A program made the translations under genes and the position numbers. A model generated the notes under the pieces. That model was not told the DNA's origin. It was given only the letters and a program-made list of their open reading frames with translations, and made no database searches. Of a stretch of 64,000 nt of DNA, positions 5,259 through 44,400 are shown piece by piece. This DNA comes from a phage: the sequence record PV806337.1. One strand, 5' to 3'. Numbering within the stretch: the stretch's first letter is position 1; each line of letters opens with the position of its first letter.

Positions 5259-6778
5259 ATATCGCTGGCCTGTTCACCTGTTGAATTTTCAGTTTTGTCT
5301 TTCTTAGCACGTTTAGGTTGAGCCGGCTTATCCTTCTCAATAGGGATAACGAACTCAGCTTCCATTTGAGATATATCTTCCATTGCTAGATTGGTAGTGT
5401 TATCCATCCGCAGGGTTTCCCAGTTCATTTTAGGCATAAACTTCACGCTATCAGAAGAACGAGTCTTAACGAAGTCAAACATAATAGCACCTTGACCATT
5501 ATCAGCTTTTGCAGCATTAAGATTAGCAGCCATGTCTGCGGAATCAAGAATCCCCTTTGACATACGTGTTCTACCATCTTGATCGATCTGGTAAGGAGCT
5601 ACGCCAGCCACGTTATGTTTCTGGCAGATGGATTTGAAAGACGAGCTAACAACCATCTGTTCTTTCCAGTCATACATATCAATGGTTTTAGAATCTGGAA
5701 GTCGGGTTTGGTTAATATAGTCCAGTAAAGCTACTGTAACTTTATCACCATATCTAGCAACTAATTTATTTAATTCTACGTCAACTGTTGTAATGGACAG
5801 TTCAGGGTCATAAACGATAATCATAGGAGTATGTAGTTCATACCCTTCTATTAGCTTACTCTCCATATCGTAGAAATCACTCATCTTAGCCATTGTATAC
5901 TGTTTAACGAAGTTATCGAAAAGCTCTTCACCACCGTTGAACATTCTAGCTCTAGTTCTGGCTAATCTCAATAGAGCTGCACCTTCTAGAGTATTATTAC
6001 GCATTGCTAGTGCTGATACCCCGGCTAACATGGCTAGATTACGTCTAAATACTTCATGTTCTTTCATCTCAATTGAGAAGTATGGAGCAATATCTCCATT
6101 CAAATATTGCTGAACCTGTATGTTTGAACAGATAATGGATTTACCAGTACCACGCCAACCACCAAGCAGTAACGTTTCTGTGCGAGCTAAACCAATTTGA
6201 GCGTCGAACTCATTACAAATACCAAGAGCGATTAAGTTCAGTTTGGTATCTTCTTCTCTCTGGAAAATACGCATGTTATCTGCGTTGAATACTTTTCCAG
6301 TATTCGTTACTTTCTCTTCTAATTTTAAGTGAAGGGAGGCAACTCGGTTGAGAATTTCTCCCTGATCCAGCATTGTTAAATCTTGAAGCACGTCTGTTTC
6401 TAGAAGCTTCAGGAATAAATCCTGTGTATATTCAGCCTCTAGGACTTCAAGTGCCTGTTCCATGCTCACTTCTGGAATTTGAGTGTTAGCTAAGACGACT
6501 AGAGCTTGAGAAAGGCGGGCGTTCCTATTAGCTTCAAGCATAAGTGCGTCAATGGACGGCATTGTGTTATATTTTTTATAATAATTCTGGACGGCTTGGT
6601 AAATTGAGGAGAAAGCGTCATTAAAATGATCTTTATGCAGTTTTGAGAATGTTTCCAATGCTATTTGCTTCTGTTCGGAAGCTAGAAGCATCTTCAACAC
6701 TACAGCTTGCACGTTAAACAAGGTCATTCTCCTTTGCACGCTTTCGTGCCTTCTAAATGCAAAAAGGGGAAGGAGCAT
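5255..6778 (-). CDS. replicative DNA helicase (DnaB/RecA-fold, 507 aa)
   Basis: Walker A GGWRGTGKS; directly upstream of primase in same operon; strong RBS (AAGGGGAGGGGG) before ATG 6778. Confidence 0.7.
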   Translation of the reverse strand: MLLPLFAFRRHESVQRRMTLFNVQAVVLKMLLASEQKQIALETFSKLHKDHFNDAFSSIYQAVQNYYKKYNTMPSIDALMLEANRNARLSQALVVLANTQIPEVSMEQALEVLEAEYTQDLFLKLLETDVLQDLTMLDQGEILNRVASLHLKLEEKVTNTGKVFNADNMRIFQREEDTKLNLIALGICNEFDAQIGLARTETLLLGGWRGTGKSIICSNIQVQQYLNGDIAPYFSIEMKEHEVFRRNLAMLAGVSALAMRNNTLEGAALLRLARTRARMFNGGEELFDNFVKQYTMAKMSDFYDMESKLIEGYELHTPMIIVYDPELSITTVDVELNKLVARYGDKVTVALLDYINQTRLPDSKTIDMYDWKEQMVVSSSFKSICQKHNVAGVAPYQIDQDGRTRMSKGILDSADMAANLNAAKADNGQGAIMFDFVKTRSSDSVKFMPKMNWETLRMDNTTNLAMEDISQMEAEFVIPIEKDKPAQPKRAKKDKTENSTGEQASDI

Positions 6779-30211: not shown

Positions 30212-30448
30212 ATGCGTAATTTTGTAGCAAAGAATGATTTTAACCGTGCTAGCACTCATAAGTCCGCTAGAGATTATACACGACTTTCTAGTCATGAGGT
30301 AATGGACACCTGTTATGAAGAGCTGGAAGGTAGCTGGAATGAATGGCCCGACTTCTCTATGGAAGAGAACTGGGATGTCAGTGAGGATATGCTTCCTGGC
30401 TTTAAAGACCCCAAGAAGTGGGAGTCTATTAAAGAGCTGTCTCTTTAA
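30212..30448 (+). CDS. hypothetical acidic protein (78 aa)
   Basis: Track ORF with RBS GGAG. Confidence 0.5.
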   Translation: MRNFVAKNDFNRASTHKSARDYTRLSSHEVMDTCYEELEGSWNEWPDFSMEENWDVSEDMLPGFKDPKKWESIKELSL

Positions 30449-30476: not shown

Positions 30477-31178
30477 ATGAAAGTAAAACCATTTGGTATG
30501 CTAGATATTGAATCTCTGGGAACTCCAGGAGATTGTGGTACTACTCATATCGCAATGCCTTCTTTCGCTTTTGTGGCTATGCATGGAATTGATAAAGACC
30601 CTGATCTAATATTTGTTACTTTGGATGTACAAGATCAGCTTAATTCTGGTGCCAAAGTTACAGCATCTACTCTAGCATTCTGGATGGATCAAGCTAAAAA
30701 TAGCCCGTCTGCTATCCACATTATGGAAGCTATGAAGGAACGTAATCCAAAACTGATTGCCTTCCAAAATGGTAAACATCATTGCACTAATAAACTCGGC
30801 TCTAACTATGCTGCCTACTCTATGGCTAAAAATATTATGGAGTTGGCTTTAGGCGAAAATGCTTTGTATTATGGAAACGGTCCAGAGTTTGATATGACTA
30901 TCTACTCTGCAAACACGTTCCATGCTGGAACCAATGAAGAGGTAGTTCCGTGGAAATTCTGGAATTTGGGTAATGTTCGATCTCTTCGTAACCTCTGGAT
31001 GCAGGCTGGATACAGTTATAAAGCTCTAGAGACCGAAGGTATTAGCTGGGCAATAGCTAAAATGGAGAAGATGGACACCATTCGTTATGGGATCTATCCG
31101 GTTAAGCACGACCCAGCATTTGATGCCTTAGTTGAGAGCTATTGTGTTGCAGCTATGATCGAAAAAATGAAAATTTGA
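30477..31178 (+). CDS. DEDDh-family 3'-5' exonuclease-like protein
   Basis: Exo I-like MLDIESLG and Exo III-like HDPAFDALVE. Confidence 0.6.
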   Translation: MKVKPFGMLDIESLGTPGDCGTTHIAMPSFAFVAMHGIDKDPDLIFVTLDVQDQLNSGAKVTASTLAFWMDQAKNSPSAIHIMEAMKERNPKLIAFQNGKHHCTNKLGSNYAAYSMAKNIMELALGENALYYGNGPEFDMTIYSANTFHAGTNEEVVPWKFWNLGNVRSLRNLWMQAGYSYKALETEGISWAIAKMEKMDTIRYGIYPVKHDPAFDALVESYCVAAMIEKMKI

Positions 31179-31179
31179 T

Positions 31180-31208
31180 TTGCTTCCGGCTCCAAAATTC
31201 TGTATAAT
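31180..31208 (+). promoter_or_regulatory. T5-type promoter
   Basis: -35 TTGCTT, 17 bp, -10 TATAAT upstream of 31249. Confidence 0.7.
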
Positions 31209-31248
31209 ATATTCATAAATTTGAGAAAACAATAAAAGGAAAACAAAT

Positions 31249-31431
31249 ATGCCAGTATCTAAAAATGTTCGTAAAAATGGTAAGAAAGCTACTCGTAATC
31301 TGGGTATCCGTCGTATGGCTGAACGTCAATCAGGTATCCAGAAAATCTTTGATCTGCTAAATCGTGCTAATCCTAAAATTGATAACAGTAACGATACTGT
31401 TCTGCGCACTCTGCTGGCAATTGGTCTGTAA
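31249..31431 (+). CDS. hypothetical small basic protein (60 aa)
   Basis: Track ORF with own promoter. Confidence 0.5.
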   Translation: MPVSKNVRKNGKKATRNLGIRRMAERQSGIQKIFDLLNRANPKIDNSNDTVLRTLLAIGL

Positions 31432-31484
31432 TAGACCAACTTTAAACAAATTCAAATCTCAAACTTCATATAAGGAAGCAAATA

Positions 31485-32123
31485 ATGACTACTCGTATCT
31501 CTAAAACTCGCGCTCTGGCAACTATCAAATCTCTGGAAGCTAAAATCCGTAAAGCTACTGAACAACAGCTTCTGATCGCTGTTGGTGAAGGTAAGGATAA
31601 AAATAAGGTTGTAGTTGGCGCTGCAATCGAAGTAGATGATTTATCTGAGCGTATTAAGACAGATTTCCAGTCCCTGCTGGATATGATGTCCCAGCGTGAT
31701 CGTATCAAAGCTGCTCTGATTAAGAGCAATGCAGAAACGATCGTTGAGATAGGCTCTCGTAAAATGACTGTTGCGGAAGCAATTGAAGCTAAGCGTTCTA
31801 TGGAACTTAAAGCCCAACTGCTGGCTAACATGCGTAAGCAGTTCCATGCCGCCACGGTTAAGTTTAATACGCAGAAAGCACAGTTTGATGCTAAATATGA
31901 GCGTTTGCAGGATAGCATGGCTACCCGTGATAAGAAAACTTCCGAAGATGAAGTTAAAATGCAGCTCAACCTGCTGGAACTCAAGAATACTCCATTCTTG
32001 ATTGATCCGCTGGAACTGGAGAAGCTGATTAAGCAGCATGACGAGGAATACCAGGACTTTGCAACAAATGTTGATTTTGTTCTGTCCGAGTCTAACGCCT
32101 CTACCTTCATTGAAGTAGAGTAA
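31485..32123 (+). CDS. hypothetical protein (212 aa), coiled-coil-rich
   Basis: Track ORF with RBS AAGGAAG; antisense track ORFs look spurious. Confidence 0.6.
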   Translation: MTTRISKTRALATIKSLEAKIRKATEQQLLIAVGEGKDKNKVVVGAAIEVDDLSERIKTDFQSLLDMMSQRDRIKAALIKSNAETIVEIGSRKMTVAEAIEAKRSMELKAQLLANMRKQFHAATVKFNTQKAQFDAKYERLQDSMATRDKKTSEDEVKMQLNLLELKNTPFLIDPLELEKLIKQHDEEYQDFATNVDFVLSESNASTFIEVE

Positions 32124-32506
32124 TAATTTAAAAGCTAGTAAATCGGTAGACGAAAGCCCAAGCATCTTACCTCGCAGCAGCGGTTGAAATACGAGGTTAA
32201 ATAAGACCGCTGACCATACTATAAAGTATAATCTATTGGAGATTATGTTTATTACACCAGCCTTTTAAGCTGACACGTAAGAACAAAGCGTCGTTGATAT
32301 TACCGACACAACTTCAAAGATCAACATTTAAGTATGAAAGCTGAAAAGTTTAAAGAACTCAAACTTCTAAACTTCTAAAGCTAAAAGATGCAAAGTATTC
32401 GTTGATGATTCAAACCCTAGATCAAAGGTACATGGCTCATAAGATATGGCCTGTGGCGCCTCTAGGCTGTTTATCGGTTTACTAGTTTCACAATTTAAAA
32501 ATGTAT

Positions 32507-32535
32507 TTGCTAATTTACTAAGTTATCTGTATAAT
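32507..32535 (+). promoter_or_regulatory. T5-type promoter
   Basis: -35 TTGCTA, 17 bp, -10 TATAAT upstream of 32566. Confidence 0.7.
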
Positions 32536-32565
32536 ATATTTTTAAATTGATGAAACGAGGCTATT

Positions 32566-32883
32566 ATGACTTTTCATATTTTGATTGATGATGTGCGTAA
32601 TCTTCACGGAATGGATATTATCATTCGAACCCCAGAAGCCGCTGTAGAGTTTCTGAATAAAACTGATACCACCGGCCATTTCGTTTATATGGATAATGAC
32701 TTGGCTGTAGATGGTATGGAAGGTTATCAAATTCTTCGTTTACTCTTAGAATTTGGGCAGAGACCAAAGAAAGTGGTACTAGTAACCTCGAACCCAGTAG
32801 CTAAGCAAAATATGCGTAATGATTTGCTTGACTTAGGGTATAAAGAAAATCCCAATCGTGTTGAATATGATTGGCAGGAGTAA
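32566..32883 (+). CDS. hypothetical protein (105 aa), possibly receiver-like fold
   Basis: Track ORF with own promoter; acidic residues ILIDDV...MDNDL; weak. Confidence 0.5.
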   Translation: MTFHILIDDVRNLHGMDIIIRTPEAAVEFLNKTDTTGHFVYMDNDLAVDGMEGYQILRLLLEFGQRPKKVVLVTSNPVAKQNMRNDLLDLGYKENPNRVEYDWQE

Positions 32884-32888
32884 AAAGA

Positions 32889-33338
32889 ATGAAGGCAGCT
32901 TTGCTTTTAGTAGCTGCCCTTACCTTCAGCTTTAGTAGTCAGGCATCGCACGATGCAAAAGAAATAGATTGCATTGCTAAAAATATCTATTTCGAAAGTC
33001 GTGGTGAGGGCATAAAGGGAATGACGGCGATTGCACATGTTACTAAAAACCGTGTAAACTCCGGTAAATTCCCAGATTCCTACTGTAAAGTAGTATATCA
33101 GTCTAACCAGTTCTCTTGGGTATCTAAGAGACCAAAAGTTGATAAAACTGATGAGGCTTGGCAAACCGCTAAGAATTTAGCTAGAGTGATATACTACGTT
33201 GATTTACCACAAGATCCTACATATGGAGCACTATACTTCCATAGTGGTAAAGATAAACCTTACTGGACAAAGAAGTTTAAGAAAACAACTAAGATTAAGG
33301 GACATACATTCTATAAACCTGTTGTCACTAAAACTTAA
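32889..33338 (+). CDS. secreted cell-wall hydrolase, SleB/CwlJ-like
   Basis: Signal peptide MKAALLLVAALTFSFSSQA; block NIYFESRGEGIKGMTAIAHVTKNR typical of SleB-type hydrolases. Confidence 0.6.
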   Translation: MKAALLLVAALTFSFSSQASHDAKEIDCIAKNIYFESRGEGIKGMTAIAHVTKNRVNSGKFPDSYCKVVYQSNQFSWVSKRPKVDKTDEAWQTAKNLARVIYYVDLPQDPTYGALYFHSGKDKPYWTKKFKKTTKIKGHTFYKPVVTKT

Positions 33339-33346
33339 AAATTTAC

Positions 33347-33375
33347 TTGCTTAGCTACTTAAATTTCTGTATAAT
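33347..33375 (+). promoter_or_regulatory. T5-type promoter
   Basis: -35 TTGCTT, 17 bp, -10 TATAAT upstream of small ORF 33407. Confidence 0.7.
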
Positions 33376-33406
33376 ACTTTCATAAATTAATGAGAGGAAG
33401 CGAAAT

Positions 33407-33577
33407 ATGAAATCAGTTGTAATTATTGGTGTTAACACTCGCGGTATTCGTACTACGAAAACTGTTAAAACTTCTAACGTTGCTGAAATAACTACGAACC
33501 CTAAAAAGTTTGATTTCGCCAAAGTCTCAGCAGTTATGACAGAACAATCTTTTAACCAAGCATTGGGGATGAAATAA
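33407..33577 (+). CDS. hypothetical small protein (56 aa)
   Basis: Not in track (<60 aa); T5-type promoter and RBS GAGAGGAAG upstream; stop overlaps next start. Confidence 0.4.
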   Translation: MKSVVIIGVNTRGIRTTKTVKTSNVAEITTNPKKFDFAKVSAVMTEQSFNQALGMK

Positions 33578-34011
33578 TGGGTGAAAATATTCTAATGACC
33601 CTTCGTGGACTACTTAGTCTAGCACGTACTCACGGTGATAAGGAACGGGCACTTAATCTTCAGACCATGATTGGTGATCTGCAACGTATTGATAAAGACA
33701 TTGTTACTCGAACCGAGTTCGTAGCCTATCTGAAAGCTCAGATTAAGGCTCTAGAAAATGCAAAACAACGCGCTATTAAAGTTGGTATGGAAGTTCCTAC
33801 TGATGTAGACTATGAGCAACTGCTTTATTCCATGCTGCAAGAGTATCAGCCAAGTCAACTGACTGAGGTTCAGATTCGTGAGTATTTTGCAGAACTGGTT
33901 AAATTAAACCCAGGTATTACCAAAGCTCTATTAATGAAAACTATTAAGGCAGAATTTCCCGGACGTTATGACGGTAAAACAACTGCTTTGATTGCTAGTG
34001 AATTTTTCTAA
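33577..34011 (+). CDS. hypothetical protein (144 aa)
   Basis: Track ORF. Confidence 0.55.
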   Translation: MGENILMTLRGLLSLARTHGDKERALNLQTMIGDLQRIDKDIVTRTEFVAYLKAQIKALENAKQRAIKVGMEVPTDVDYEQLLYSMLQEYQPSQLTEVQIREYFAELVKLNPGITKALLMKTIKAEFPGRYDGKTTALIASEFF

Positions 34012-34019
34012 AAATTCAT

Positions 34020-34048
34020 TTGCTAAATGCTTATAAATTCTGTATAAT
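34020..34048 (+). promoter_or_regulatory. T5-type promoter driving an about 800-nt non-coding transcript ending in tRNA-Arg
   Basis: -35 TTGCTA, 17 bp, -10 TATAAT; no ORF with RBS until 34955. Confidence 0.7.
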
Positions 34049-34270
34049 ATATTCATAAATTAGGGAACAGCGAGCCGATTACGCTGAGTGCAGAATCCCA
34101 ACCGGAGCGCATTGAATAGAGTCGGTGGGTTAGTTGTAAAACTAGTACACAGGGGGCGGCAATCCCGGTTAGTGGCTAGAACGTGTAAAATGAGGCGTCT
34201 GAAACCTCTCCCCTAAACTCTTCTCTGATTTATAAATAGTGGGGTGTGGAAATCACTTATGTAGTAACAC

Positions 34271-34342
34271 TGCCGTCCTAGTATAATTGGTATTATCAAG
34301 CCGTAACTGGTGGAAGATGTAGGTTCGAATCCTACGGTCGGT
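34271..34342 (+). ncRNA. degenerate tRNA-like fragment (T-arm and acceptor only)
   Basis: T-arm GTAGG-TTCGAAT-CCTAC and 6/7-bp acceptor GCCGTCC/GGTCGGT, no convincing anticodon arm, no CCA. Confidence 0.3.
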
Positions 34343-34845
34343 AAGAACTGGATAACTGATGCTTTTAACATAAAAGCTTCCGAGGTTAGTTGCGCACTGC
34401 CTAAACCACGCGGTAGTTGGTTCCAGACTAACCAACCAGTCTGCTGAATAGTTTTATTACGATTTAACTATGTCCAGGCTAAAGAAGAACTTTAGAAGGT
34501 ATTCTAGGATAGTGAAGTTCTTTCTCCATATCGGAGTAGTTTTTCAAGCTATCCACAAAGTGGGAAATGCTGACATGAGAGATGTCACTAATGGTGCACA
34601 ATAGCACAGGTAATTCGCGATAACTCCTGTTGAGTAGCAGCAAAAGGTGGGAAGTCATGACCCCAAGCCTAACCGAGTCCTCAATATACCGCAGGACATA
34701 ACCACTAAGTCACCCTGACTTAAACTGGAAAATAATAGACGTTACTGTATTTTGTCTTGAAATACTTAATGAGTGAGACTTATGACTCTCCCGGTATCGT
34801 CTGTATTTTTAAGAGTTTTTACGAGAGTTCTTAAAAATACTTAAA

Positions 34846-34920
34846 CGGGGTGTAGTCTAAGGGAGAGGCAGGAGTCTTCTAAATTCCTTTATGCAGGTTC
34901 GAATCCTGTCACCTCGGCCA
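34846..34920 (+). tRNA. tRNA-Arg (anticodon TCT)
   Basis: Acceptor CGGGGTG/CACCTCG, anticodon stem GGAGT/ATTCC with loop CTTCTAA, T-arm GCAGG-TTCGAAT-CCTGT, encoded CCA. Confidence 0.8.
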
Positions 34921-34954
34921 ATTTTATTAACTGTAACTAAAACAAAGGAAATAT

Positions 34955-35902
34955 ATGTTTGCTACTAAAAATATGAAAGAACTGACTTCTGAGCAGAAAG
35001 TAATTCGTACTATTAAACGTTGGGGTATTGGTGCTGTAGTTGGTTTAGCAGGTTTAATCCTAGCTTTTAATTCATATACTATTGTTTCTGATGGTACGGT
35101 TAAAACCCAAACATTCCTGGGTAAAGTAGACCCTAATCCAGTATTGCCGGGCTTCCATCTTGTAAACCCGTTTGCATCTTTCGATACTTTTAGTACAAAA
35201 GATATTGCTGTAAAATTAGATAAACTTCAGGTTCCTAGCCAGGATAAGTTTAAATCCACTGTTGACCTGACTGTTATGTTGCAGTTTGATGGTTCTAAAG
35301 CACCGATTAACCGTATTAACGCAGGTACTCAGGATCAGGCACTAGACAAGTATGTAACTGAAAAATTACTGTCTACTATTCGTGAGTTTGGTAAGTCTGT
35401 ACCTAAAGCACAAGATTTATTTGATGCTAAAATTCAGGCTCAATTGCAAACTGCAATTCAACAGGAAGTTGAAGAGTATGCGCGCCCATATGGTTACACA
35501 GTTAAGCAGGTATTCCTTCAGGATATTACCTTGCCGCCAGTAATCATGGAACAGGTACAGAATACCAAAGTTCGTGAAGAGCAAGTTAATGCTGCGAAAG
35601 CTGAACTTGCTCGCGTTGAACAGGAAGCACAGCAAAAAGTTAAACAAGCAGAAGCAGATCGTGAAGCTCGTAACAACCAAGCTATTGCTAATGAACGTGA
35701 CGCAGATGCTAAACTGTACGCAGCTAAGAAAGAAGCTGAAGCTAACGCCGCATTGCAACGTACCATTACTCCTGAAATGATTCGTTGGAAACAACTGGAA
35801 GTTGAAATGATCCGTGCTCAGAAGTATCAAGGTGGTGTACCTCAGACTGTGGTAGGTACTGGCTACGATGGTCAAATGATCATGGATATGCGTAACAAGT
35901 AA
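34955..35902 (+). CDS. SPFH/band-7 (stomatin/prohibitin-like) membrane protein
   Basis: N-terminal TM (WGIGAVVGLAGLILAF), SPFH-like core, long Ala/Glu/Gln coiled coil. Confidence 0.65.
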   Translation: MFATKNMKELTSEQKVIRTIKRWGIGAVVGLAGLILAFNSYTIVSDGTVKTQTFLGKVDPNPVLPGFHLVNPFASFDTFSTKDIAVKLDKLQVPSQDKFKSTVDLTVMLQFDGSKAPINRINAGTQDQALDKYVTEKLLSTIREFGKSVPKAQDLFDAKIQAQLQTAIQQEVEEYARPYGYTVKQVFLQDITLPPVIMEQVQNTKVREEQVNAAKAELARVEQEAQQKVKQAEADREARNNQAIANERDADAKLYAAKKEAEANAALQRTITPEMIRWKQLEVEMIRAQKYQGGVPQTVVGTGYDGQMIMDMRNK

Positions 35903-35925
35903 TAGTTACACGTAATCTTCGAACC

Positions 35926-35960
35926 AAGCCCGCGTTTCCTACGAGAGCGCGGGCTTTTCT
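35926..35960 (+). terminator. rho-independent terminator after SPFH gene
   Basis: AAGCCCGCG ... CGCGGGCTT followed by TTTCTGTATTT. Confidence 0.7.
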
Positions 35961-35970
35961 GTATTTAAGG

Positions 35971-36015
35971 CAAAAGAAAAAGCCCCTTACCTTTCGGCAG
36001 GGGCTTTTGTTTTTG
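35971..36015. terminator. bidirectional terminator between convergent units
   Basis: AGCCCCT-TACCTTTCGGC-AGGGGCT flanked by A-run upstream and T-run downstream. Confidence 0.65.
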
Positions 36016-36221
36016 GTTTAGAACCATACTCTCGGTGTACAGCAACCACCCATACGGGAGGCCAATCTTGACTGAAAATCTACTCTAGGGGGCAGGATAA
36101 GAGTAGGCTTAAAGGCAAAGGGATTGAACGCCGGTATTTGCGTAAACATTGCTGGAGAGCAACAACGTGCTACAGGCACTGGGCAGCACGAAACAGATTT
36201 TCTGCAACACATATTTCCTCC

Positions 36222-36638
36222 TTAGGAGTTACTACCCCCATTTTGAGCTTTTGCAACTTGGCTTTGGCAGAAGCTATTAAACTTACCCATAAGTGATACA
36301 AGCTGTTTCCCATCCTCTGTCTTTGCGAAGTCTTCGAAAAGGGCTAGTACTGCCTGTCCTTCCGCAGAAACCTGCGGTTGTTGGGTTTGTTGCTGAACTT
36401 GCTGCTGAGGCACCTGTTGCTGCATTTGTTGAGGCATTTGCGACTGCCCGCTCATTTGCTGCATCATTTGCATAGGACTCACACTTCCAGGGTTTTGCTG
36501 GAGTTGTTGCTGCATCTGTTGCGCTTCTGCTAAACGCTGTTGCAACTGTTGTAAGTAGGGGTTATCCAGACCCGGAATGGGCTGCTGGGAGCCCATACTT
36601 TGATTAAGTCCGTTATTTACAAAACCATATTTACTCAT
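36222..36638 (-). CDS. Gln-rich low-complexity protein (138 aa)
   Basis: Track ORF; extreme Q/M/P composition (QQMQQQLQQ...). Confidence 0.5.
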   Translation of the reverse strand: MSKYGFVNNGLNQSMGSQQPIPGLDNPYLQQLQQRLAEAQQMQQQLQQNPGSVSPMQMMQQMSGQSQMPQQMQQQVPQQQVQQQTQQPQVSAEGQAVLALFEDFAKTEDGKQLVSLMGKFNSFCQSQVAKAQNGGSNS

Positions 36639-36659
36639 AATGGGCTCCTCCCCTTAATA

Positions 36660-37649
36660 TTAAGCCGGCAGTTTAGCCTGCAGACCAGCCAGAGTCTGAG
36701 TGATAGCACCAAGACTTAAAGCGATTTGATTAATTACCTGACCGTTAGCACCGCTACCCGCAGCGATTGCTTCACGTAGGCGACATGCGTCTAACTCATC
36801 CTGGATACGCGCAGTAGTTACACCAGCGATCGCAGTCTGAAGTTCACAGCAACATTCAGCGATCTGACGTTCCAGAGAGTTCTGGTTAGCACACATCTGA
36901 GCCTGAACAGCGGCAAACTGGTTATTAGTTTGTAAAGTCTGCTGGAAAGCGATCTGTGCAGAATCAAACTTATCTTGTGCACGAGCTATCTGGTTAGCTG
37001 CGAAAGATTGATCAATCTGGCGAGAAAGATCGAACTGACCCTGAATAACGTTGCGAGTTTCCTGGCAGATCTGATTAGACAGATTAGCACCTGTACCGTA
37101 GATCGTAGTTAGTACAGACTGAGTATCACGGCTCTGGTTTTGGGTTGTCTGGCTAAAACCATTGTTAACTGCGCTTAAAACAGCTCCAGTACCCTGGTTA
37201 GCCTCTGTACGAGTAGTGTTGATAGCTGCTAGAATACTAGCGGTATCTTGGTTCTGAAGTACTGCATCAACTGCGGTACCTTCACCAACTACACCACGTC
37301 CACCGAATCCACCGAAACCACCGAATCCGCCGGTTAATAGAGCACCGATTAGGATAGCTCCGAATAGTCCCATACCTTCACCACCGAAAGCACCTGCGTT
37401 TGCTGGGTAACCACCCAGTAGGCCAGGGAAGCCACTAGTGAATACGTTTACTGGTTCTTGCATTTTATGTTTTCCATATTTATGACAATGTTCATCATCG
37501 TCATCTTCTTCTTCATCATCGTGTTCACGATGTTTTTCTTCGTAGGCTCTGACCTTCTCCCACTTTTTCTTATCTGATTCCTCGTGACGGTGCAGTTCTG
37601 CTGCAACGCTAGCGACGGTCTCAGGACTCTTAGCTACTTCTTCTGTCAT
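36660..37649 (-). CDS. membrane protein with His/acidic N-terminus, Gly-rich TM and Q/N/T-rich C-terminus
   Basis: Likely start M21 of track ORF with RBS AGGAGGTG; HREHDDEEEDDDDEH block; GALLTGGFGGFGGFGG; own sigma70-like promoter. Confidence 0.55.
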   Translation of the reverse strand: MTEEVAKSPETVASVAAELHRHEESDKKKWEKVRAYEEKHREHDDEEEDDDDEHCHKYGKHKMQEPVNVFTSGFPGLLGGYPANAGAFGGEGMGLFGAILIGALLTGGFGGFGGFGGRGVVGEGTAVDAVLQNQDTASILAAINTTRTEANQGTGAVLSAVNNGFSQTTQNQSRDTQSVLTTIYGTGANLSNQICQETRNVIQGQFDLSRQIDQSFAANQIARAQDKFDSAQIAFQQTLQTNNQFAAVQAQMCANQNSLERQIAECCCELQTAIAGVTTARIQDELDACRLREAIAAGSGANGQVINQIALSLGAITQTLAGLQAKLPA

Positions 37650-37711
37650 ATTTTGACACCTCCTAGTATATAGAAAATGTGTGTCTCTTTGATCACTCAT
37701 CCATAACATAT

Positions 37712-37740
37712 ACTTTACACTACCCCAGCGAAAATGTCAA
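37712..37740 (-). promoter_or_regulatory. sigma70-like promoter for antisense island gene
   Basis: -35 TTGACA, 17 bp, -10 TAAAGT on minus strand; lacks the T5 early promoter downstream box. Confidence 0.5.
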
Positions 37741-37856
37741 GGGGTCTTTAAAAATTGCCCCCGGATTTTTAGTGGGGTCACAAATTTTGGTCCTCCCCAC
37801 TTATCTGCTACCCTTAAGTGCCCTATGATTTTCCTCTAAAAAGTTAAAAAATTTGA

Positions 37857-37885
37857 TTGCTTGAATGCTAAATTCTCTGTATAAT
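37857..37885 (+). promoter_or_regulatory. T5-type promoter for Toprim gene
   Basis: -35 TTGCTT, 17 bp, -10 TATAAT. Confidence 0.7.
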
Positions 37886-37915
37886 ATATCTATAAATTTG
37901 AGAGAGGAACCAAAT

Positions 37916-38434
37916 ATGAATGTTGATGAGCTAACACAGCACCTCTTATCCAGAGGATTTGATACAGATAAATATCATTGCTGGTTAAGTCCGGAAGGAT
38001 GGCTAACAGTCCCGTTGTATGACTTCTCCGGGATGTTGCGAGGCTATCAGACGTATAATCCTTCTGCTCCAAAAGGTCATGGTAAGTGTCCCTTTGAAGC
38101 TAAATATTTTACTTATTCTACTACCCAGTGTGTATGGGGACTAGAAACTCTCAATGGAGATGAAAAAGTAGTATTGATCGCTGAATCTGTATTTAAGGCA
38201 GTTGCGCTACATAACGCTGGTTATCCAGCCCTGGCAATGTTAGGTTCTTCTCCAGGAAAAGCGTTATTAAAGCAACTGAAATTATTACCTTTTAAATTGG
38301 TAGCTGTCGGAGACAACGATCCTGCGGGTGAAAAATTTGCTAGAAAATTAAACGGCTTTGTTTCTCCCGTAGATGTGGATGAGATGTCTACCGAAAACTT
38401 GAAAAATTTTCTTGCTATGAAGCTAAATTTCTAA
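37916..38434 (+). CDS. Toprim-domain protein (possible RNase M5-like/primase-like nuclease)
   Basis: Toprim Glu (VVLIAESVFKAV) and DxD (AVGDNDPAGEKFARKL); likely start M18 of track ORF. Confidence 0.6.
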   Translation: MNVDELTQHLLSRGFDTDKYHCWLSPEGWLTVPLYDFSGMLRGYQTYNPSAPKGHGKCPFEAKYFTYSTTQCVWGLETLNGDEKVVLIAESVFKAVALHNAGYPALAMLGSSPGKALLKQLKLLPFKLVAVGDNDPAGEKFARKLNGFVSPVDVDEMSTENLKNFLAMKLNF

Positions 38435-38440
38435 TATAAT
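38412..38440 (+). promoter_or_regulatory. T5-type promoter directly upstream of tRNA-Ser
   Basis: -35 TTGCTA, 17 bp, -10 TATAAT; tRNA starts about 16 nt after -10. Confidence 0.65.
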
Positions 38441-38455
38441 ATATCTTATAAATTC

Positions 38456-38544
38456 GGAAGAATAGCATAACGGTATTGCAGCAGATTGCTAATCTGTCGG
38501 TTTGAAATATAGCCTTGTGGGTTCGATTCCCACTTCTTCCGCCA
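38456..38544 (+). tRNA. tRNA-Ser (anticodon GCT), long variable arm
   Basis: Acceptor GGAAGAA/TTCTTCC, anticodon loop TTGCTAA, T-arm GTGGG-TTCGATT-CCCAC, CCA; T5-type promoter directly upstream. Confidence 0.8.
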
Positions 38545-38550
38545 AATTCT

Positions 38551-38628
38551 GGTTCTCAAGCTCATATGGTATGAGCACCCGGCTCATAACCGGAAGGTAC
38601 GTAGGTTCGAATCCTCGGGGAGCCACCA
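38551..38628 (+). tRNA. tRNA with CAT anticodon (Met/fMet/Ile2), non-canonical T-stem
   Basis: Acceptor GGTTCTC/GGGAGCC with G-U pairs; anticodon loop CTCATAA; T-loop TTCGAAT with bulged stem; CCA. Confidence 0.55.
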
Positions 38629-40352: not shown

Positions 40353-40427
40353 GCACCTTTAGCTGAGATGGATTAGCGCTTGCCTGAAGAGCTTGAGAGG
40401 TTGGATCGTTACCAACGGGGTGCTCCA
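40353..40427 (+). tRNA. tRNA-like, possibly Phe (anticodon GAA), non-canonical T-loop
   Basis: Acceptor GCACCTT/GGGGTGC, D-arm GCTG...TAGC, anticodon loop CTGAAGA with mismatched stem, T-arm GTTGG-ATCGTTA-CCAAC, CCA. Confidence 0.45.
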
Positions 40428-42109: not shown

Positions 42110-42457
42110 ATGATTAATGCTAAAGAAGAATTGTTACTTGCCCTAAAGAATACTAATTCTGAAGTTAAGTGTATTAAGATAGAATTCGGTTATTATGGGG
42201 ATAAAGAAGTTTGGGTATTACCCGTAGGTTATACAGAAAAAGATATTGAAGATTTTCTAGATAATCTAGACTTTAAATATGATTCTGGTTTCGGCGGACA
42301 ATTGCTTTATGGTAACGTATGGTTTACCGATGGAACTTGGTTAGAACGTGGTGAATATGATGGTTCTGAATGGTGGGAATATAAGACTACACCAGCAATC
42401 CCAGAAGAATGCCGAACAATTAATGGTGAAGTAGATCGTACTTTACTATTAAATTAA
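42110..42457 (+). CDS. hypothetical protein (115 aa)
   Basis: Track ORF. Confidence 0.55.
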   Translation: MINAKEELLLALKNTNSEVKCIKIEFGYYGDKEVWVLPVGYTEKDIEDFLDNLDFKYDSGFGGQLLYGNVWFTDGTWLERGEYDGSEWWEYKTTPAIPEECRTINGEVDRTLLLN

Positions 42458-42579
42458 CAAAATTTCAGTGCAGAACACGGAGCTAGCAATTCGGAAGTGC
42501 TGACTCATGATAAGCTGCCTATGTACTTGCGAAGCGGTCGTGTCCAAGACTCGGACTCTTGCACTGAAAACAATCAAAC

Positions 42580-42700
42580 ATTCTAGCGTGGTTGATGGGG
42601 AAACCAGCTTGGCGAGGGCAGAAGCTCGTTCGATTCGAGTGAAAGAATGGTTCTCGTAAGTCCGCACAAGTGATAACAGGTTCGAGTCCTGTCTAGAATG
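42580..42700 (+). ncRNA. tRNA-like element about 121 nt, tRNA ends with expanded internal region
   Basis: Perfect 7-bp acceptor ATTCTAG/CTAGAAT, D-arm-like TGGTT-GATGGGGA-AACCA, 3' T-arm ACAGG-TTCGAGT-CCTGT, internal second T-arm-like CTCG-TTCGATT-CGAG; no CCA. Confidence 0.4.
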
Positions 42701-42711
42701 ACACTATAAAG

Positions 42712-42833
42712 TTTACTTATTATGTAGGTTCCGATAGACCGGCGGGTCTATTCTGGCATTTAAGAGAGGTCTCGCAAACTTCTTTGTCAGCCGTGGGGTT
42801 GGTAGCCTCCAGGTGGCCTACACAATAAGTAAA
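42712..42833 (+). ncRNA. structured non-coding element closed by a 17-bp long-range stem
   Basis: TTTACTTATTATGTAGG pairs with CCTACACAATAAGTAAA 105 nt downstream (16/17); internal hairpins AGACC-GGCG-GGTCT; no ORF. Confidence 0.4.
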
Positions 42834-42849
42834 TTTATTAAAAATTCAT

Positions 42850-42878
42850 TTGCTATTCTGCTTTATTATCTGTATAAT
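42850..42878 (+). promoter_or_regulatory. T5-type promoter
   Basis: -35 TTGCTA, 17 bp, -10 TATAAT upstream of small membrane ORF 42911. Confidence 0.7.
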
Positions 42879-42910
42879 ATATTTTATAAAGTGAAGAGAA
42901 GGAAAGCAAA

Positions 42911-44309: not shown

Positions 44310-44400
44310 GGAAGAGCAAATCGAATTGGCGACGAAAACCGCTTGGAAAGTGGCTGACTGGTAAAACGGCTTGAGAGTTCAAATCTCTCCTCTTCCGCCA
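44310..44400 (+). tRNA. tRNA-Ser-like (probable anticodon GGA), long variable arm
   Basis: Acceptor GGAAGAG/CTCTTCC, T-arm GAGAG-TTCAAAT-CTCTC, CCA; candidate loop TTGGAAA. Confidence 0.55.

What the first reader, a model, noticed from the sequence alone, without database searches (positions are those of the whole stretch)
42580..42700. tRNA-like gene with a perfect acceptor stem but about 45 nt of extra internal sequence
A 7-bp acceptor (ATTCTAG/CTAGAAT), a D-arm-like hairpin and a canonical T-arm are present, but about 70 nt lie between the D-arm and T-arm instead of about 22 to 40. The extra sequence contains a second T-arm-like hairpin (CTCG-TTCGATT-CGAG). It could be an intron-containing or chimeric tRNA, a tRNA-derived regulatory RNA, or a decayed tRNA.
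Basis: seen in the sequence. Interest (0 to 1): 0.6.

Follow-up and report, generated by a model that had tools for sequence, protein, structure and literature searches.

The report
Phage T5 "RNA2" tRNA-like RNA
This is the already-annotated "RNA2" gene of T5-like phages: a well-conserved RNA shaped like a tRNA, but with the anticodon arm replaced by a long conserved arm ending in a second T-loop, so it cannot decode, and its function is still unknown.

Summary
The window is a T5-like phage, and 42580-42700(+) is about 96% identical and syntenic to the misc_RNA "rna2, tRNA-like stable RNA with unknown functions" annotated in phage T5 (NC_005859) and BF23. It is not a decayed tRNA. A covariance model separates 36+ family members (67-142 bits) from ordinary tRNAs (38 bits or less), and 28 of 34 base pairs show compensatory changes (0/500 shuffles reach the observed score). 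It is not an intron-containing tRNA either. ARAGORN and Rfam do not call it, and no anticodon loop remains. The acceptor sequence and discriminator are not conserved. No CCA is encoded, although all 21 ARAGORN-called tRNAs in the window encode one. The anticodon arm is replaced by a 63-nt arm: three helices, a 5-bp hairpin with a T-loop (UUCRAYU), an invariant AAUGG strand and a CGUAA bulge. The same module occurs in Klebsiella and Serratia T5-like phages, T4-like Acinetobacter phages (without D-stem or a good acceptor), metagenomic tRNA arrays and one bacterial chromosomal context. It is absent from Rfam. The T5 region is dispensable in the laboratory. The most likely role is a non-decoding tRNA mimic, excised by tRNA-processing enzymes, that acts through its elbow and long arm. 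The partner is unknown. The gene is known, but the family breadth and structural model appear new.

The parts
42580..42586 (+). Acceptor stem, 5' strand (AUUCUAG). The depositors' T5 rna2 feature maps to window 42579-42703.
   Evidence: Pairs with 42693-42699. All 7 pairs show changes on both sides across the family: ATTCTAG/CTAGAAT, GGGTACT/GGTATCC, TACGGGG/TCCCGTA, GGGGCGG/TCGCTCC, ACTGACC/GGTCAGT and others.
42589..42606 (+). D-arm: 5-bp stem (42589-93 with 42602-06) and 8-nt loop GAUGGGGA carrying the conserved GG.
   Evidence: All 5 pairs covary. GG is conserved in every member, including those without a D-stem.
42608..42611 (+). P1, base of the long arm, 5' strand (CUUG). It occupies the anticodon-stem position.
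   Evidence: Pairs with 42667-42670 (CAAG). 100% of cells are paired and 4/4 pairs covary.
42612..42615 (+). 5' side of the internal loop (GCGA), opposite GCA at 42664-42666.
   Evidence: The loop size (4-5 nt opposite 3 nt) is kept across the family and the final A of the 3' side is conserved. No standard pairing is supported.
42616..42623 (+). 5' strands of P1b (GGGC, 42616-19) and P2 (AGAA, 42620-23).
   Evidence: P1b pairs with 42660-63 (GUCC). It is mostly invariant, and pair 40:81 switches between C-G (18 sequences) and U-A (9). P2 pairs with 42651-54 (UUCU), 82.7% paired, with register shifts in the Klebsiella and Acinetobacter forms. These are the weaker parts of the model.
42624..42640 (+). 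T1: internal T-arm-like hairpin, 5-bp stem and loop UUCGAUU, capping the long arm where an anticodon loop would be.
   Evidence: 4/5 stem pairs covary: CTCG/CGAG, ACGG/CCGT, CTGG/CCAG, CTTG/CAAG, ATGG/CCAT, CCCG/CGGG. When the search pattern left the loop free, it varied only within UUCRAYU.
42641..42650 (+). 10-nt purine-rich bulged strand GAAAGAAUGG, with AAUGG invariant.
   Evidence: AAUGG is invariant in all members, including those found by BLAST rather than by the pattern. No conserved ORF starts at its AUG, and no antisense target exists in the window.
42651..42670 (+). 3' side of the long arm: P2 3' strand (UUCU), bulge CGUAA (42655-59), P1b 3' strand (GUCC), loop GCA (42664-66) and P1 3' strand (CAAG).
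   Evidence: UAA and CC are invariant. The rival MFE pairing of this segment is no better than shuffles.
42671..42675 (+). 5-nt variable-loop equivalent (UGAUA).
   Evidence: Its position and length match a class I tRNA variable loop (alignment).
42676..42692 (+). T2: canonical T-arm, 5-bp stem and loop UUCGAGU.
   Evidence: 4/5 pairs covary. GGUUC.A.UCC is conserved.
42693..42703 (+). Acceptor 3' strand (CUAGAAU), discriminator G (42700) and a non-CCA tail ACA.
   Evidence: No CCA is encoded here, whereas all 21 ARAGORN-called tRNAs in the window encode CCA. The discriminator and tail vary between lineages.

Best explanation
The locus is the RNA2 gene of T5-like phages, a non-decoding tRNA mimic.

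Shown here:
- It is orthologous and syntenic to T5/BF23 rna2.
- It folds into a tRNA-like core: a 7-bp acceptor stacked on a 5-bp T-stem, a D-arm with the GG that locks the T-loop, and a 5-nt variable loop.
- The anticodon arm is replaced by a conserved 63-nt arm made of helices P1, P1b and P2, capped by a second T-loop hairpin and carrying an invariant AAUGG strand and a CGUAA bulge.
- It has no promoter of its own and lies among tRNA genes.
- It has no anticodon loop, no conserved acceptor identity and, in this phage, no encoded CCA.

Inferred:
- It is transcribed as part of a polycistronic tRNA/ORF precursor.
- It is excised by the tRNA-processing machinery: RNase P at the 5' end, and endo/exonucleolytic trimming at the 3' end.
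- It accumulates as a stable RNA of about 120-125 nt that is neither aminoacylated nor used in decoding.
- It acts in trans through the parts that are conserved even in relatives lacking acceptor and D stems, namely the elbow (D-loop GG plus T-loop) and the long arm. It would engage, or compete with real tRNAs for, a factor that recognises tRNA shape. That factor could be a tRNA-processing or tRNA-modifying enzyme, a tRNA-binding protein, or a tRNA-targeting defence nuclease.

The RNA is an accessory function. The T5 region that contains it can be deleted without loss of plaque formation on laboratory E. coli.
For: Identity: the window is 99.8% identical to T5-like phages. The element is about 96% identical and syntenic to T5 rna2, followed by rnaIV, promoter P13a, a small TM ORF, tRNA-Pro and tRNA-fMet. 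BF23 rna2 carries the same annotation.

Structure: covariation supports the acceptor, D, P1, T1 and T2 helices. The model built from the family matches genuine tRNAs over its full length at 20-38 bits, which shows the core is tRNA-like.

Not a decoding tRNA: ARAGORN and Rfam give no call. Acceptor, discriminator and 3' tail vary between lineages. All 21 ARAGORN-called tRNAs in the window encode CCA but RNA2 does not.

Functional core is elbow plus long arm: copies in T4-like Acinetobacter phages keep the GG loop, long arm, T1, AAUGG and T2 but have no D-stem and a weak or absent acceptor.

Selection acts on the RNA, not on a peptide: the mini-ORF is not conserved.

Co-transcription with tRNAs: no sigma-70-like promoter lies directly upstream. 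In relatives the element follows a tRNA's CCA by 0-7 nt.

One copy per genome, and broad distribution in tRNA arrays.

Dispensability: the T5Mos deletion 30661-38625 spans rna2 (record positions 32959-33083) and the phage is viable (PMC11464382). The region is the del-1 deletion hotspot (PMC12483538).
Against: No expression, end-mapping, modification or binding data were available to me. 'Stable RNA' rests on the depositors' GenBank notes.

The partner and the biological effect are entirely inferred.

Helices P1b and P2 are only moderately supported, and nothing tests tertiary contacts.

Part of the apparent invariance of GTTCGATTC, AATGG and TAA comes from the search patterns used. It is only partly controlled by BLAST-found members and by a pattern that left T1 free.

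The missing CCA does not rigorously exclude aminoacylation, because E. coli can add CCA after transcription, and three lineages do encode CCA.

The occurrence in a bacterial chromosomal context fits a general role in tRNA biology better than a phage-specific decoy.
Confidence: 0.6

Rival explanations
1. Anti-defence decoy. RNA2 is specifically a sponge or competitive inhibitor for a host or prophage tRNA-targeting immune nuclease or tRNA-modifying toxin, complementing the nuclease-resistant tRNAs encoded in the same region. This is a specific sub-case of the best explanation.
For: The T5 tRNA region is an accessory arms-race locus. Its tRNA-Lys neutralises PARIS (PMC11464382). T5-like phages evade tRNA-Tyr-cleaving systems by encoding tRNA-Tyr (PMC13096335). 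T5.058 in the same region triggers DRT9 (PMC12483538). RNA2 is dispensable in the laboratory. It keeps tRNA shape but lacks the anticodon loop.
Against: Most characterised tRNA-targeting nucleases recognise the anticodon or variable loop, which RNA2 lacks. The same module occurs in a bacterial chromosomal tRNA operon next to a chemotaxis gene and in phages of very different hosts, which argues for a universal partner rather than one defence system. No experiment links RNA2 to any defence.
Confidence: 0.2
2. Purely cis-acting processing or punctuation element. The tRNA-like fold only recruits RNase P and 3' processing enzymes to cut the polycistronic transcript and stabilise neighbouring RNAs (upstream ORF mRNA, RNAIV). 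The RNA has no trans function.
For: It has no promoter of its own and lies between an ORF and another structured RNA. The acceptor plus T-stem forms the 12-bp stack that RNase P measures (PMC4919913). tRNA-like punctuation is an established principle.
Against: A punctuation signal needs only the acceptor and T-arm. Here the best conserved part is the long arm with T1, AAUGG and CGUAA, and the Acinetobacter-phage copies keep that arm while losing the acceptor and D-stem. The flanks are replaced between lineages (tRNA-Lys and tRNA-Gly in Epseptimavirus, tRNA-Gly in Acinetobacter phages, no tRNAs at all near L088) while the element is retained.
Confidence: 0.12
3. Aminoacylated tRNA-like RNA with a non-decoding role. 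This could be tmRNA-like ribosome entry, or an amino-acid donor for a tRNA-dependent transferase or amidotransferase, possibly together with the phage YqeY-like protein.
For: The acceptor helix is intact. CCA is encoded in UTK0010/OSY-STA, Klebsiella K7rec10 and L083. G3:U70 with A73 occurs in Serratia Kamaji and L056. YqeY/GatB-tail genes lie next to the element in L088 and L053 and at the edge of the T5-type tRNA region.
Against: Acceptor pairs, discriminator and CCA are not conserved. Slocum, the sister of Kamaji, has G3-C70. The Acinetobacter copies lack a usable acceptor. There is no conserved tag ORF, and ARAGORN's tmRNA search found nothing. YqeY adjacency is not general: four YqeY loci have no family hit, and the L053 protein has no homologue in deposited phages.
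Confidence: 0.05
4. Intron-containing tRNA, for example tRNA-Arg(CCG) with a 48-nt insert that is spliced out to give a working tRNA.
For: At a lowered threshold (-ps80) ARAGORN models 42580-42700 as tRNA-Arg(CCG) with a 48-nt intron.
Against: Nothing is found at the default threshold in intron mode. The intron would sit at 33/34, not 37/38, and would leave C at position 37. The residual 'anticodon' would change between lineages (UCCGCA, UCCAUA, ACCAUA). The insert is far too small for a group I intron, and no Rfam ribozyme or intron family matches at E up to 10. The 'intron' is the most conserved part, and it is paired to the putative loop through P1b.
Confidence: 0.02
5. Decayed tRNA pseudogene or chance tRNA-like sequence with no function.
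For: tRNA finders and Rfam do not call it. The single-sequence fold has z = -1.0. There is no CCA. The region is dispensable in the laboratory.
Against: It is conserved in about 480 phage records and in distant lineages, with compensatory changes in 28/34 pairs. There is a clean score gap between family members and tRNAs. The flanks turn over while the element persists.
Confidence: 0.01

Closest known systems
Phage T5 / BF23 rna2 (misc_RNA T5s06 in NC_005859; FIU71_gs03 in NC_042564), 'tRNA-like stable RNA with unknown functions'
   Same: The same gene. It is about 96% identical, has the same length and boundaries, and has the same neighbours: T5.067-like ORF upstream, then rnaIV, promoter P13a, a small TM ORF, tRNA-Pro and tRNA-fMet downstream.
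   Different: Only point substitutions, for example U3-A70 here against U3.G70 in T5. In BF23 and Epseptimavirus, a tRNA-Gly(GCC) is inserted between rna2 and rnaIV.
Canonical tRNA (Rfam RF00005)
   Same: 7-bp acceptor plus 5-bp T-stem, T-loop UUCRANY, D-arm with GG, 5-nt variable loop, location inside a tRNA operon. A model of this family aligns to real tRNAs end to end.
   Different: No anticodon stem-loop, which is replaced by a 63-nt arm. C8 instead of U8. 5-bp D-stem. No encoded CCA. Not detected by ARAGORN or RF00005.
Phage T4 stable RNAs: species 1 (rnaC) and species 2 (rnaD)
   Same: Small stable RNAs of unknown function, encoded at the end of a phage tRNA cluster and co-processed with tRNAs (annotation). 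rnaC has a T-arm-like 3' end.
   Different: Not homologous. rnaC scores 19.6 bits (E=0.025), which is like any tRNA, and rnaD gives no hit. Neither has the long-arm module.
tmRNA tRNA-like domain
   Same: tRNA mimicry with the anticodon arm replaced by a long irregular helix. The Acinetobacter-phage form has a D-loop without a D-stem, as the tmRNA domain does (general knowledge).
   Different: No conserved G3:U70, no conserved CCA, no tag ORF, no pseudoknots, and 120 nt against about 360 nt. ARAGORN's tmRNA search is negative.
Bacterial Y RNAs of the YrlA type (PMC4201824)
   Same: A non-coding RNA with a tRNA-like module (T-arm, D-arm, acceptor-like stem). It is a substrate of tRNA enzymes, occurs in bacteria and phages, and does not decode.
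   Different: Opposite topology. YrlA's termini are in the Ro-binding stem at the 'anticodon' side and its acceptor is a closed stem-loop. RNA2 has free acceptor termini and a closed long arm. There is no Rfam YrlA hit. No rsr gene is annotated in the T5 stretch read; linkage to rsr was not tested further.
Interdigitated double T-loop elbow-docking motif (T-box Stem I, RNase P S-domain, L1 stalk; PMC4919913)
   Same: A T-loop-bearing hairpin next to a conserved purine-rich bulge at the tip of a long helix.
   Different: The motif needs two pentanucleotide T-loops lying adjacent in space. Here the conserved bulge sequence AAUGG is D-loop-like, not T-loop-like, and is separated from the loop by a 5-bp stem. 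Membership is unsupported.

Membership tests
T5-type RNA2 (rna2 of T5/BF23) | Sequence orthology to the annotated rna2 | tested here: met
   About 96% identity over the whole element in the three-way alignment. 140.5 bits against 136.7 bits for T5 itself under model R1.
T5-type RNA2 (rna2 of T5/BF23) | Synteny: after the T5.067-like ORF and before rnaIV, promoter P13a, a TM ORF, tRNA-Pro and tRNA-fMet | tested here: met
T5-type RNA2 (rna2 of T5/BF23) | Accumulates as a stable RNA in infected cells | not testable with these tools
   Only the depositors' note 'stable RNA' is available. No transcriptomic data were found.
Canonical decoding tRNA | 7-bp acceptor coaxial with a 5-bp T-stem, T-loop, and D-loop GG | tested here: met
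   Covarying helices and conserved loops.
Canonical decoding tRNA | 5-bp anticodon stem with a 7-nt loop (U33, anticodon, purine 37) | tested here: not met
   Replaced by the 63-nt arm ending in a T-loop. The only ARAGORN model needs -ps80 and gives C37.
Canonical decoding tRNA | Recognised by the tRNA covariance model or ARAGORN | tested here: not met
   No hit at the gathering score, none at E up to 10, and none with ARAGORN at default settings or in intron mode.
Canonical decoding tRNA | 3' CCA (encoded in every co-resident tRNA) and a conserved identity set | tested here: not met
   The tail is G-ACA here, whereas 21/21 ARAGORN-called tRNAs in the window have CCA. Acceptor and discriminator vary. 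Post-transcriptional CCA addition is not testable.
Intron-containing tRNA | Intron at 37/38 (or a group I intron) whose removal restores a canonical anticodon loop | tested here: not met
   The insert is the conserved part and is paired to the would-be loop.
tmRNA | Alanine identity (G3:U70), CCA, tag reading frame, pseudoknots | tested here: not met
YrlA / bacterial Y RNA | Ro-binding stem formed by the termini; closed acceptor-like stem-loop; linkage to rsr | tested here: not met
   The topology is opposite and there is no Rfam hit. Linkage to rsr was not tested beyond the annotated T5 stretch.
T4 rnaC / rnaD | Sequence and structure homology | tested here: not met
   19.6 bits for rnaC and no hit for rnaD.
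Interdigitated T-loop elbow-docking module | Two pentanucleotide T-loops that interlock | tested here: inconclusive
   One T-loop (T1) is present. The second strand's conserved AAUGG does not fit the T-loop signature. A 3D structure is needed.

The most novel reading that the evidence does not exclude
RNA2-like RNAs are an undescribed, widespread family, absent from Rfam 15, of 'two-T-loop' tRNA mimics found in T5-like and T4-like phages, other uncultured phages and some bacterial tRNA operons. Their conserved long arm would form a second elbow-like or tRNA-docking knob. The RNA would then be a trans-acting adaptor or decoy for a universal tRNA-shape-reading factor, such as RNase P, a T-arm-modifying enzyme, a YqeY/GatB-tail protein or a tRNA-directed immune nuclease. 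That would give phages a way to tune host tRNA metabolism or immunity.
Probability: 0.3. Interest if true: 0.7.

Novelty: already known. Interest (0 to 1): 0.45.

Why it matters
The gene itself has been in the T5 and BF23 GenBank records for about two decades, so the finding rediscovers it. What remains open is its function. It is a strongly constrained RNA of about 120 nt that has kept a tRNA body while swapping the anticodon arm for a conserved module with a second T-loop. It is shared by unrelated phage lineages (Demerecviridae, T4-like Acinetobacter phages, uncultured phages) and at least one bacterial tRNA operon. It sits in the T5 accessory region that is now known to hold counter-defence tRNAs.

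The question is directly testable. Deletion collections and BASEL-type T5-like phages exist. The covariance model built here gives explicit mutational targets (T1 loop, AAUGG, CGUAA) and could seed an Rfam family. That family would stop gene callers from placing spurious 'hypothetical protein' ORFs over the locus, as several deposited records do.

Tried and rejected
1. Rfam at the gathering score and at E up to 10 on 42400-42900: no family, not even tRNA.
2. ARAGORN at default, tmRNA and intron modes: nothing. The only model, at -ps80, was rejected as not credible.
3. The single-sequence MFE fold of the long arm: rejected. Its covariation is no better than shuffles, 0.100 with 193/500 shuffles reaching it.
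4. A local hairpin AGAA(65-68)/UUCU as an alternative to P2: rejected by inspection. The Klebsiella and UTK0010 variants lack the 3'-side AGAA but keep a 5'-side partner.
5. Homology to T4 rnaC/rnaD or to T5 rna1: rejected at 19.6, no hit and 13.3 bits.
6. A tmRNA-like or coding mini-ORF from the AAUGG AUG: length and frame are not conserved.
7. An antisense target for the conserved single strands within the 64-kb window: only the self-match, plus one 12/14 match at 30255-30268 in a region with ORFs on both strands, judged to be chance.
8. A conserved neighbouring protein partner: none is common to all lineages. YqeY/GatB-tail genes lie next to the element in L088 and L053 and distally in T5-like phages. 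However, four other YqeY loci lack the RNA and the Acinetobacter phages lack a detectable homologue of the L053 protein. I kept this only as a lead.
9. K-turn and interdigitated T-loop readings of the internal loops: the sequence signatures do not fit (inspection; motif definition).
10. Literature searches for a function of T5 RNA2 or for expression data: nothing in the searchable library.
11. Many genome and metagenome pattern hits were chance matches in coding DNA, or real tRNA T-arms, and were discarded.
Full report
The window carries a phage-type tRNA cluster: 21 ARAGORN tRNAs and 23 Rfam tRNA hits between about 34.2 and 46.7 kb. It is 99.8% identical to T5-like Demerecviridae such as Escherichia phage Baret and Salmonella phage PMBT29.
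- acceptor ATTCTAG (42580-86) with CTAGAAT (42693-99), and discriminator G at 42700
- D-arm TGGTT-GATGGGGA-AACCA (42589-42606)
- T-arm ACAGG-TTCGAGT-CCTGT (42676-92)
- 69 nt between the D-arm and T-arm
- an internal hairpin (G)CTCG-TTCGATT-CGAG(T) (42624-40)

Neither ARAGORN nor Rfam calls the locus, even at E up to 10 on a 500-nt slice. The single-sequence fold is thermodynamically unremarkable, with z = -1.0.

**Identity.**
The RefSeq record of phage T5 annotates, in the syntenic position, a misc_RNA 'rna2 / RNA2, tRNA-like stable RNA with unknown functions' (record 32959-33083). It is followed by rnaIV, promoter P13a, the two-TM ORF T5.066, tRNA-Pro and tRNA-fMet. A three-way alignment shows the window element is about 96% identical to T5 rna2, and that 42716-42832 is rnaIV. 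The BF23 tRNA-region record carries the same rna2 annotation. The finding is therefore a rediscovery of a gene known to the T5 community. Most other deposited T5-like genomes leave the locus unannotated or place a 'hypothetical protein' over it.

**Distribution.**
- BLAST finds the element in about 480 phage records. These include E. coli, Salmonella, Shigella and Citrobacter T5-like phages, Klebsiella Sugarlandvirus, and the Serratia phages Kamaji and Slocum (about 75-82% identity). The core also matches Acinetobacter phages.
- Pattern scans of IMG/VR, metagenomes and GTDB genomes gave many hits. I filtered them for the rest of the architecture.
- L068/L081 is GC-rich (about 60%). There the element follows tRNA-Val and tRNA-Ala and lies beside a methyl-accepting chemotaxis gene (PF00015, E=2e-38). 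That is a bacterial chromosomal context.
- Almost all copies lie in tRNA arrays, often 0-7 nt after the CCA of the preceding tRNA. L088 is an exception, with no tRNA within 10 kb.

**Structure.**
I derived a comparative model, numbered from A1 = 42580:
- acceptor 1-7 with 114-120
- D stem 10-14 with 23-27
- P1 29-32 with 88-91
- P1b 37-40 with 81-84
- P2 41-44 with 72-75
- T1 hairpin 45-49 with 57-61, loop UUCGAUU
- bulged strand 62-71, GAAAGAAUGG
- bulge 76-80, CGUAA
- variable loop 92-96
- T2 arm 97-101 with 109-113

A covariance model built on this (R1) scores 36 family members at 67-142 bits. There is then a gap down to ordinary tRNAs at 38 bits or less. Those tRNAs align over the full model by deleting the long arm, which is direct evidence that the body is tRNA-like. 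Each genome has one copy.

| Test | Cells paired | Pairs changed on both sides | Covariation score | Controls |
|---|---|---|---|---|
| Full model, model-based alignment | 92.5% (shuffles 70.8%) | 28/34 | 0.562 | shuffles 0.167 (0/500 reach it); slid at most 0.135 |
| Full model, unfitted MAFFT alignment | 89.5% | 25/34 | 0.445 | shuffles 0.173 (0/500) |
| Long arm only, comparative model | 90.0% | 8/12 | 0.343 | 0/500 shuffles |
| Long arm only, MFE pairing | 77.8% | 3/12 | 0.100 | 193/500 shuffles, no better than chance |

The acceptor (7/7 pairs), D stem (5/5), P1 (4/4, 100% paired), T1 (4/5) and T2 (4/5) are solid. P1b is mostly invariant, with one pair switching between C-G and U-A. P2 is irregular, with register shifts. 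These two helices are provisional.

**Caveat on invariance.**
Some of my search patterns required GTTCGATTC, AATGG and TAA, so their invariance is partly by construction. Two controls address this. Members found by BLAST keep the same blocks. A pattern that left the hairpin free recovered T1 loops UUCAAUU and UUCGACU, so the constraint is the T-loop signature UUCRAYU rather than one exact sequence.

**Two architectural classes.**
- Class A has the full cloverleaf-like body. Some members have an entirely canonical U8-A9 and D-arm (L071, L088). This class includes the T5-like, Serratia and Klebsiella phages and L056, L057, L068, L071, L077, L083 and L088.
- Class B has no D-stem, only a GG-containing loop (UACC-NN-GGNGGAAG), and a weak or absent acceptor. 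In phage 133 the whole 105-nt spacer between tRNA-Gly and tRNA-Cys is the element. This class includes the T4-like Acinetobacter phages and L053.
- All members share the GG loop, the long arm with T1, AAUGG and CGUAA, and the T2 arm. The functional core is therefore the elbow plus the long arm, not the acceptor end.

**What it is not.**
- Not a decoding tRNA. There is no anticodon loop. C8 replaces U8. Acceptor pairs, discriminator and 3' tail differ between lineages. The window copy ends G-ACA, while all 21 ARAGORN-called tRNAs in the window encode CCA.
- Not an intron-containing tRNA. ARAGORN in intron mode finds nothing at its default threshold. At -ps80 it proposes tRNA-Arg(CCG) with a 48-nt intron at 33/34 and C37. 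This contradicts the conserved pairing of UCC in P1b and the fact that the 'intron' is the best conserved part.
- Not a pseudogene (see covariation above).
- Not tmRNA-like. There is no conserved G3:U70, no CCA, and no tag frame. The AUG in AAUGG opens frames of 2 to more than 18 codons in different members.
- Not related to T4 rnaC/rnaD or to T5 rna1 (19.6 bits, no hit and 13.3 bits).
- Not a YrlA-type Y RNA, whose tRNA-like module has the opposite topology (PMC4201824).

**Context and likely mechanism.**
No sigma-70-like promoter lies directly upstream. The good match (TTGCTA-17-TATAAT, 42850-78) is the P13a equivalent, downstream of RNAIV. Upstream lie a 115-aa ORF (42110-42457, T5.067-like) and an unannotated structured segment. 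RNA2 must therefore be cut from a polycistronic precursor. Its 12-bp acceptor/T stack and intact elbow are what RNase P measures (PMC4919913).

The T5 tRNA region (del-1) is dispensable and prone to deletion. T5Mos lacks 30661-38625, which includes rna2, and still forms plaques (PMC11464382; PMC12483538). The same region carries the tRNA-Lys that neutralises PARIS and a DRT9 trigger. Related work shows T5-like tRNA-Tyr countering tRNA-Tyr-cleaving systems.

I therefore commit to the following reading: a non-decoding tRNA mimic, excised by the tRNA-processing machinery, that acts in trans through its elbow and long arm on a factor that reads tRNA shape.
- Shown: orthology, fold, lack of decoding features, genomic context, dispensability.
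- Inferred: processing route, stability, absence of charging, and the trans-acting role.
- Unknown: the partner.

An anti-defence decoy is an attractive specific version. It is weakened because known tRNA nucleases mostly read the anticodon or variable loop, and because the element also occurs in a bacterial tRNA operon.

**Leads that did not hold.**
YqeY/GatB-tail (tRNA-binding) genes lie 200 nt upstream of the L088 copy (PF09424, E=1e-15) and 350 nt downstream of the L053 copy (weak). The window's T5.081 homologue (33577-34011) is a distant relative. However, YqeY genes are common in tRNA-rich phages. Four such loci have no RNA2-family hit, and the L053 protein has no homologue in deposited phages. 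No antisense target exists in the window. The interdigitated-T-loop idea is not supported by sequence.

**Verdict.**
The gene is already known as T5 RNA2. The covariation-backed structural model, the recognition of a conserved 'second T-arm' module, and the extension of the family to T4-like Acinetobacter phages, uncultured phages and a bacterial chromosome appear not to be described in the searchable literature or in Rfam 15. They make a long-standing unknown directly testable.

Noticed in passing
window 42463-42572 (+): A segment of about 110 nt between the T5.067-like ORF and RNA2. It is closed by a 10-bp long-range helix (UUCAGUGCA...UGCACUGAA), is almost identical in T5, and is not annotated there. 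MFE is -32.6 kcal/mol with z = -1.7. In Epseptimavirus the corresponding position is occupied by tRNA-Lys(CUU). It may be another processed stable RNA or a tRNA remnant.
   Followed up: partly
window 42716-42832 (+): Ortholog of T5 rnaIV ('stable RNA with unknown functions'). It is strongly structured (MFE -43.2 kcal/mol, z = -3.4) and closed by a terminal helix UGUAGG/CCUACA that extends to CUUAUU/AAUAAG. Like the T5-annotated RNA2, it ends in ...ACA. It has no Rfam family.
   Followed up: partly
window 34272-34343, 38551-38625, 40353-40424, 44310-44397 (+): tRNA-like hits from Rfam RF00005 (35.5, 40.3 and 31.5 bits) or from model R1 (44310-44397, 22.4 bits) that ARAGORN did not call. By synteny with T5 they probably correspond to a tRNA-like segment of rnaX, tRNA-Ile2(CAU), tRNA-Phe and tRNA-Ser(GGA). 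The cluster therefore holds more tRNA genes than the 21 listed.
   Followed up: no
window 33577-34011 (+): A 144-aa ORF, the homologue of T5.081 'tRNA amidotransferase'. It is a distant YqeY/GatB-tail-domain protein (Pfam E=0.003, below cutoff; BLASTP E=3e-7 to the clear YqeY protein of L088). A standalone tRNA-binding domain sits at the edge of the tRNA region. It is a candidate binder of phage tRNAs or tRNA-like RNAs.
   Followed up: partly
L013 4060-4170 (-), L007 590-680 (+), L037 609-700 (+): In Acinetobacter phages the RNA2-like element is followed immediately by an uncalled tRNA-like gene of about 88 nt (GGAAAGU...GCUUUCC-G-CCA). It has a long variable arm, an anticodon-loop-like CUGCUAA (GCU, Ser) and, in L007, an atypical T-loop (UGCAAGU).
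   Followed up: no
L013 5451-5523, L053 7053-7127, L085 6751-6823 (all -): The T4-like phage contigs that carry the element also encode a tRNA with a CUA anticodon (ARAGORN labels it 'tRNA-Pyl'), that is, a potential amber suppressor.
   Followed up: no
L038 696-926 (+) (Acinetobacter phage W16): A 76-aa ORF with a truncated RF-1/GGQ-type domain (PF00472, E=3e-10) starts 19 nt after the R1 match to the RNA2-like element (561-677). A release-factor or ArfB-like fragment lies next to a tRNA mimic.
   Followed up: partly
L101 1457-1550 and 3881-3979 (+) (Vibrio phage Pylo): Two unannotated stretches of 94-99 nt in this phage's tRNA array give weak tRNA-like hits to model R1 (21.6 and 22.9 bits). 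Their length suggests tRNA-like RNAs with insertions, unrelated to the RNA2 long arm.
   Followed up: no
L057 1-8283: A very dense array of 47 tRNA genes in 8.3 kb on a 1.46-Mb metagenomic contig, with many duplicated isoacceptors (five tRNA-Lys UUU, three tRNA-Phe). It also contains an RNA2-family member at 6023-6138.
   Followed up: no
Deposited T5-like genomes (e.g. OR896820, PV577658, MW006479): Many records annotate a 'hypothetical protein' CDS across the RNA2 locus. The only ORFs there are short and unconserved, so these are probably gene-calling artefacts over a structured RNA.
   Followed up: no
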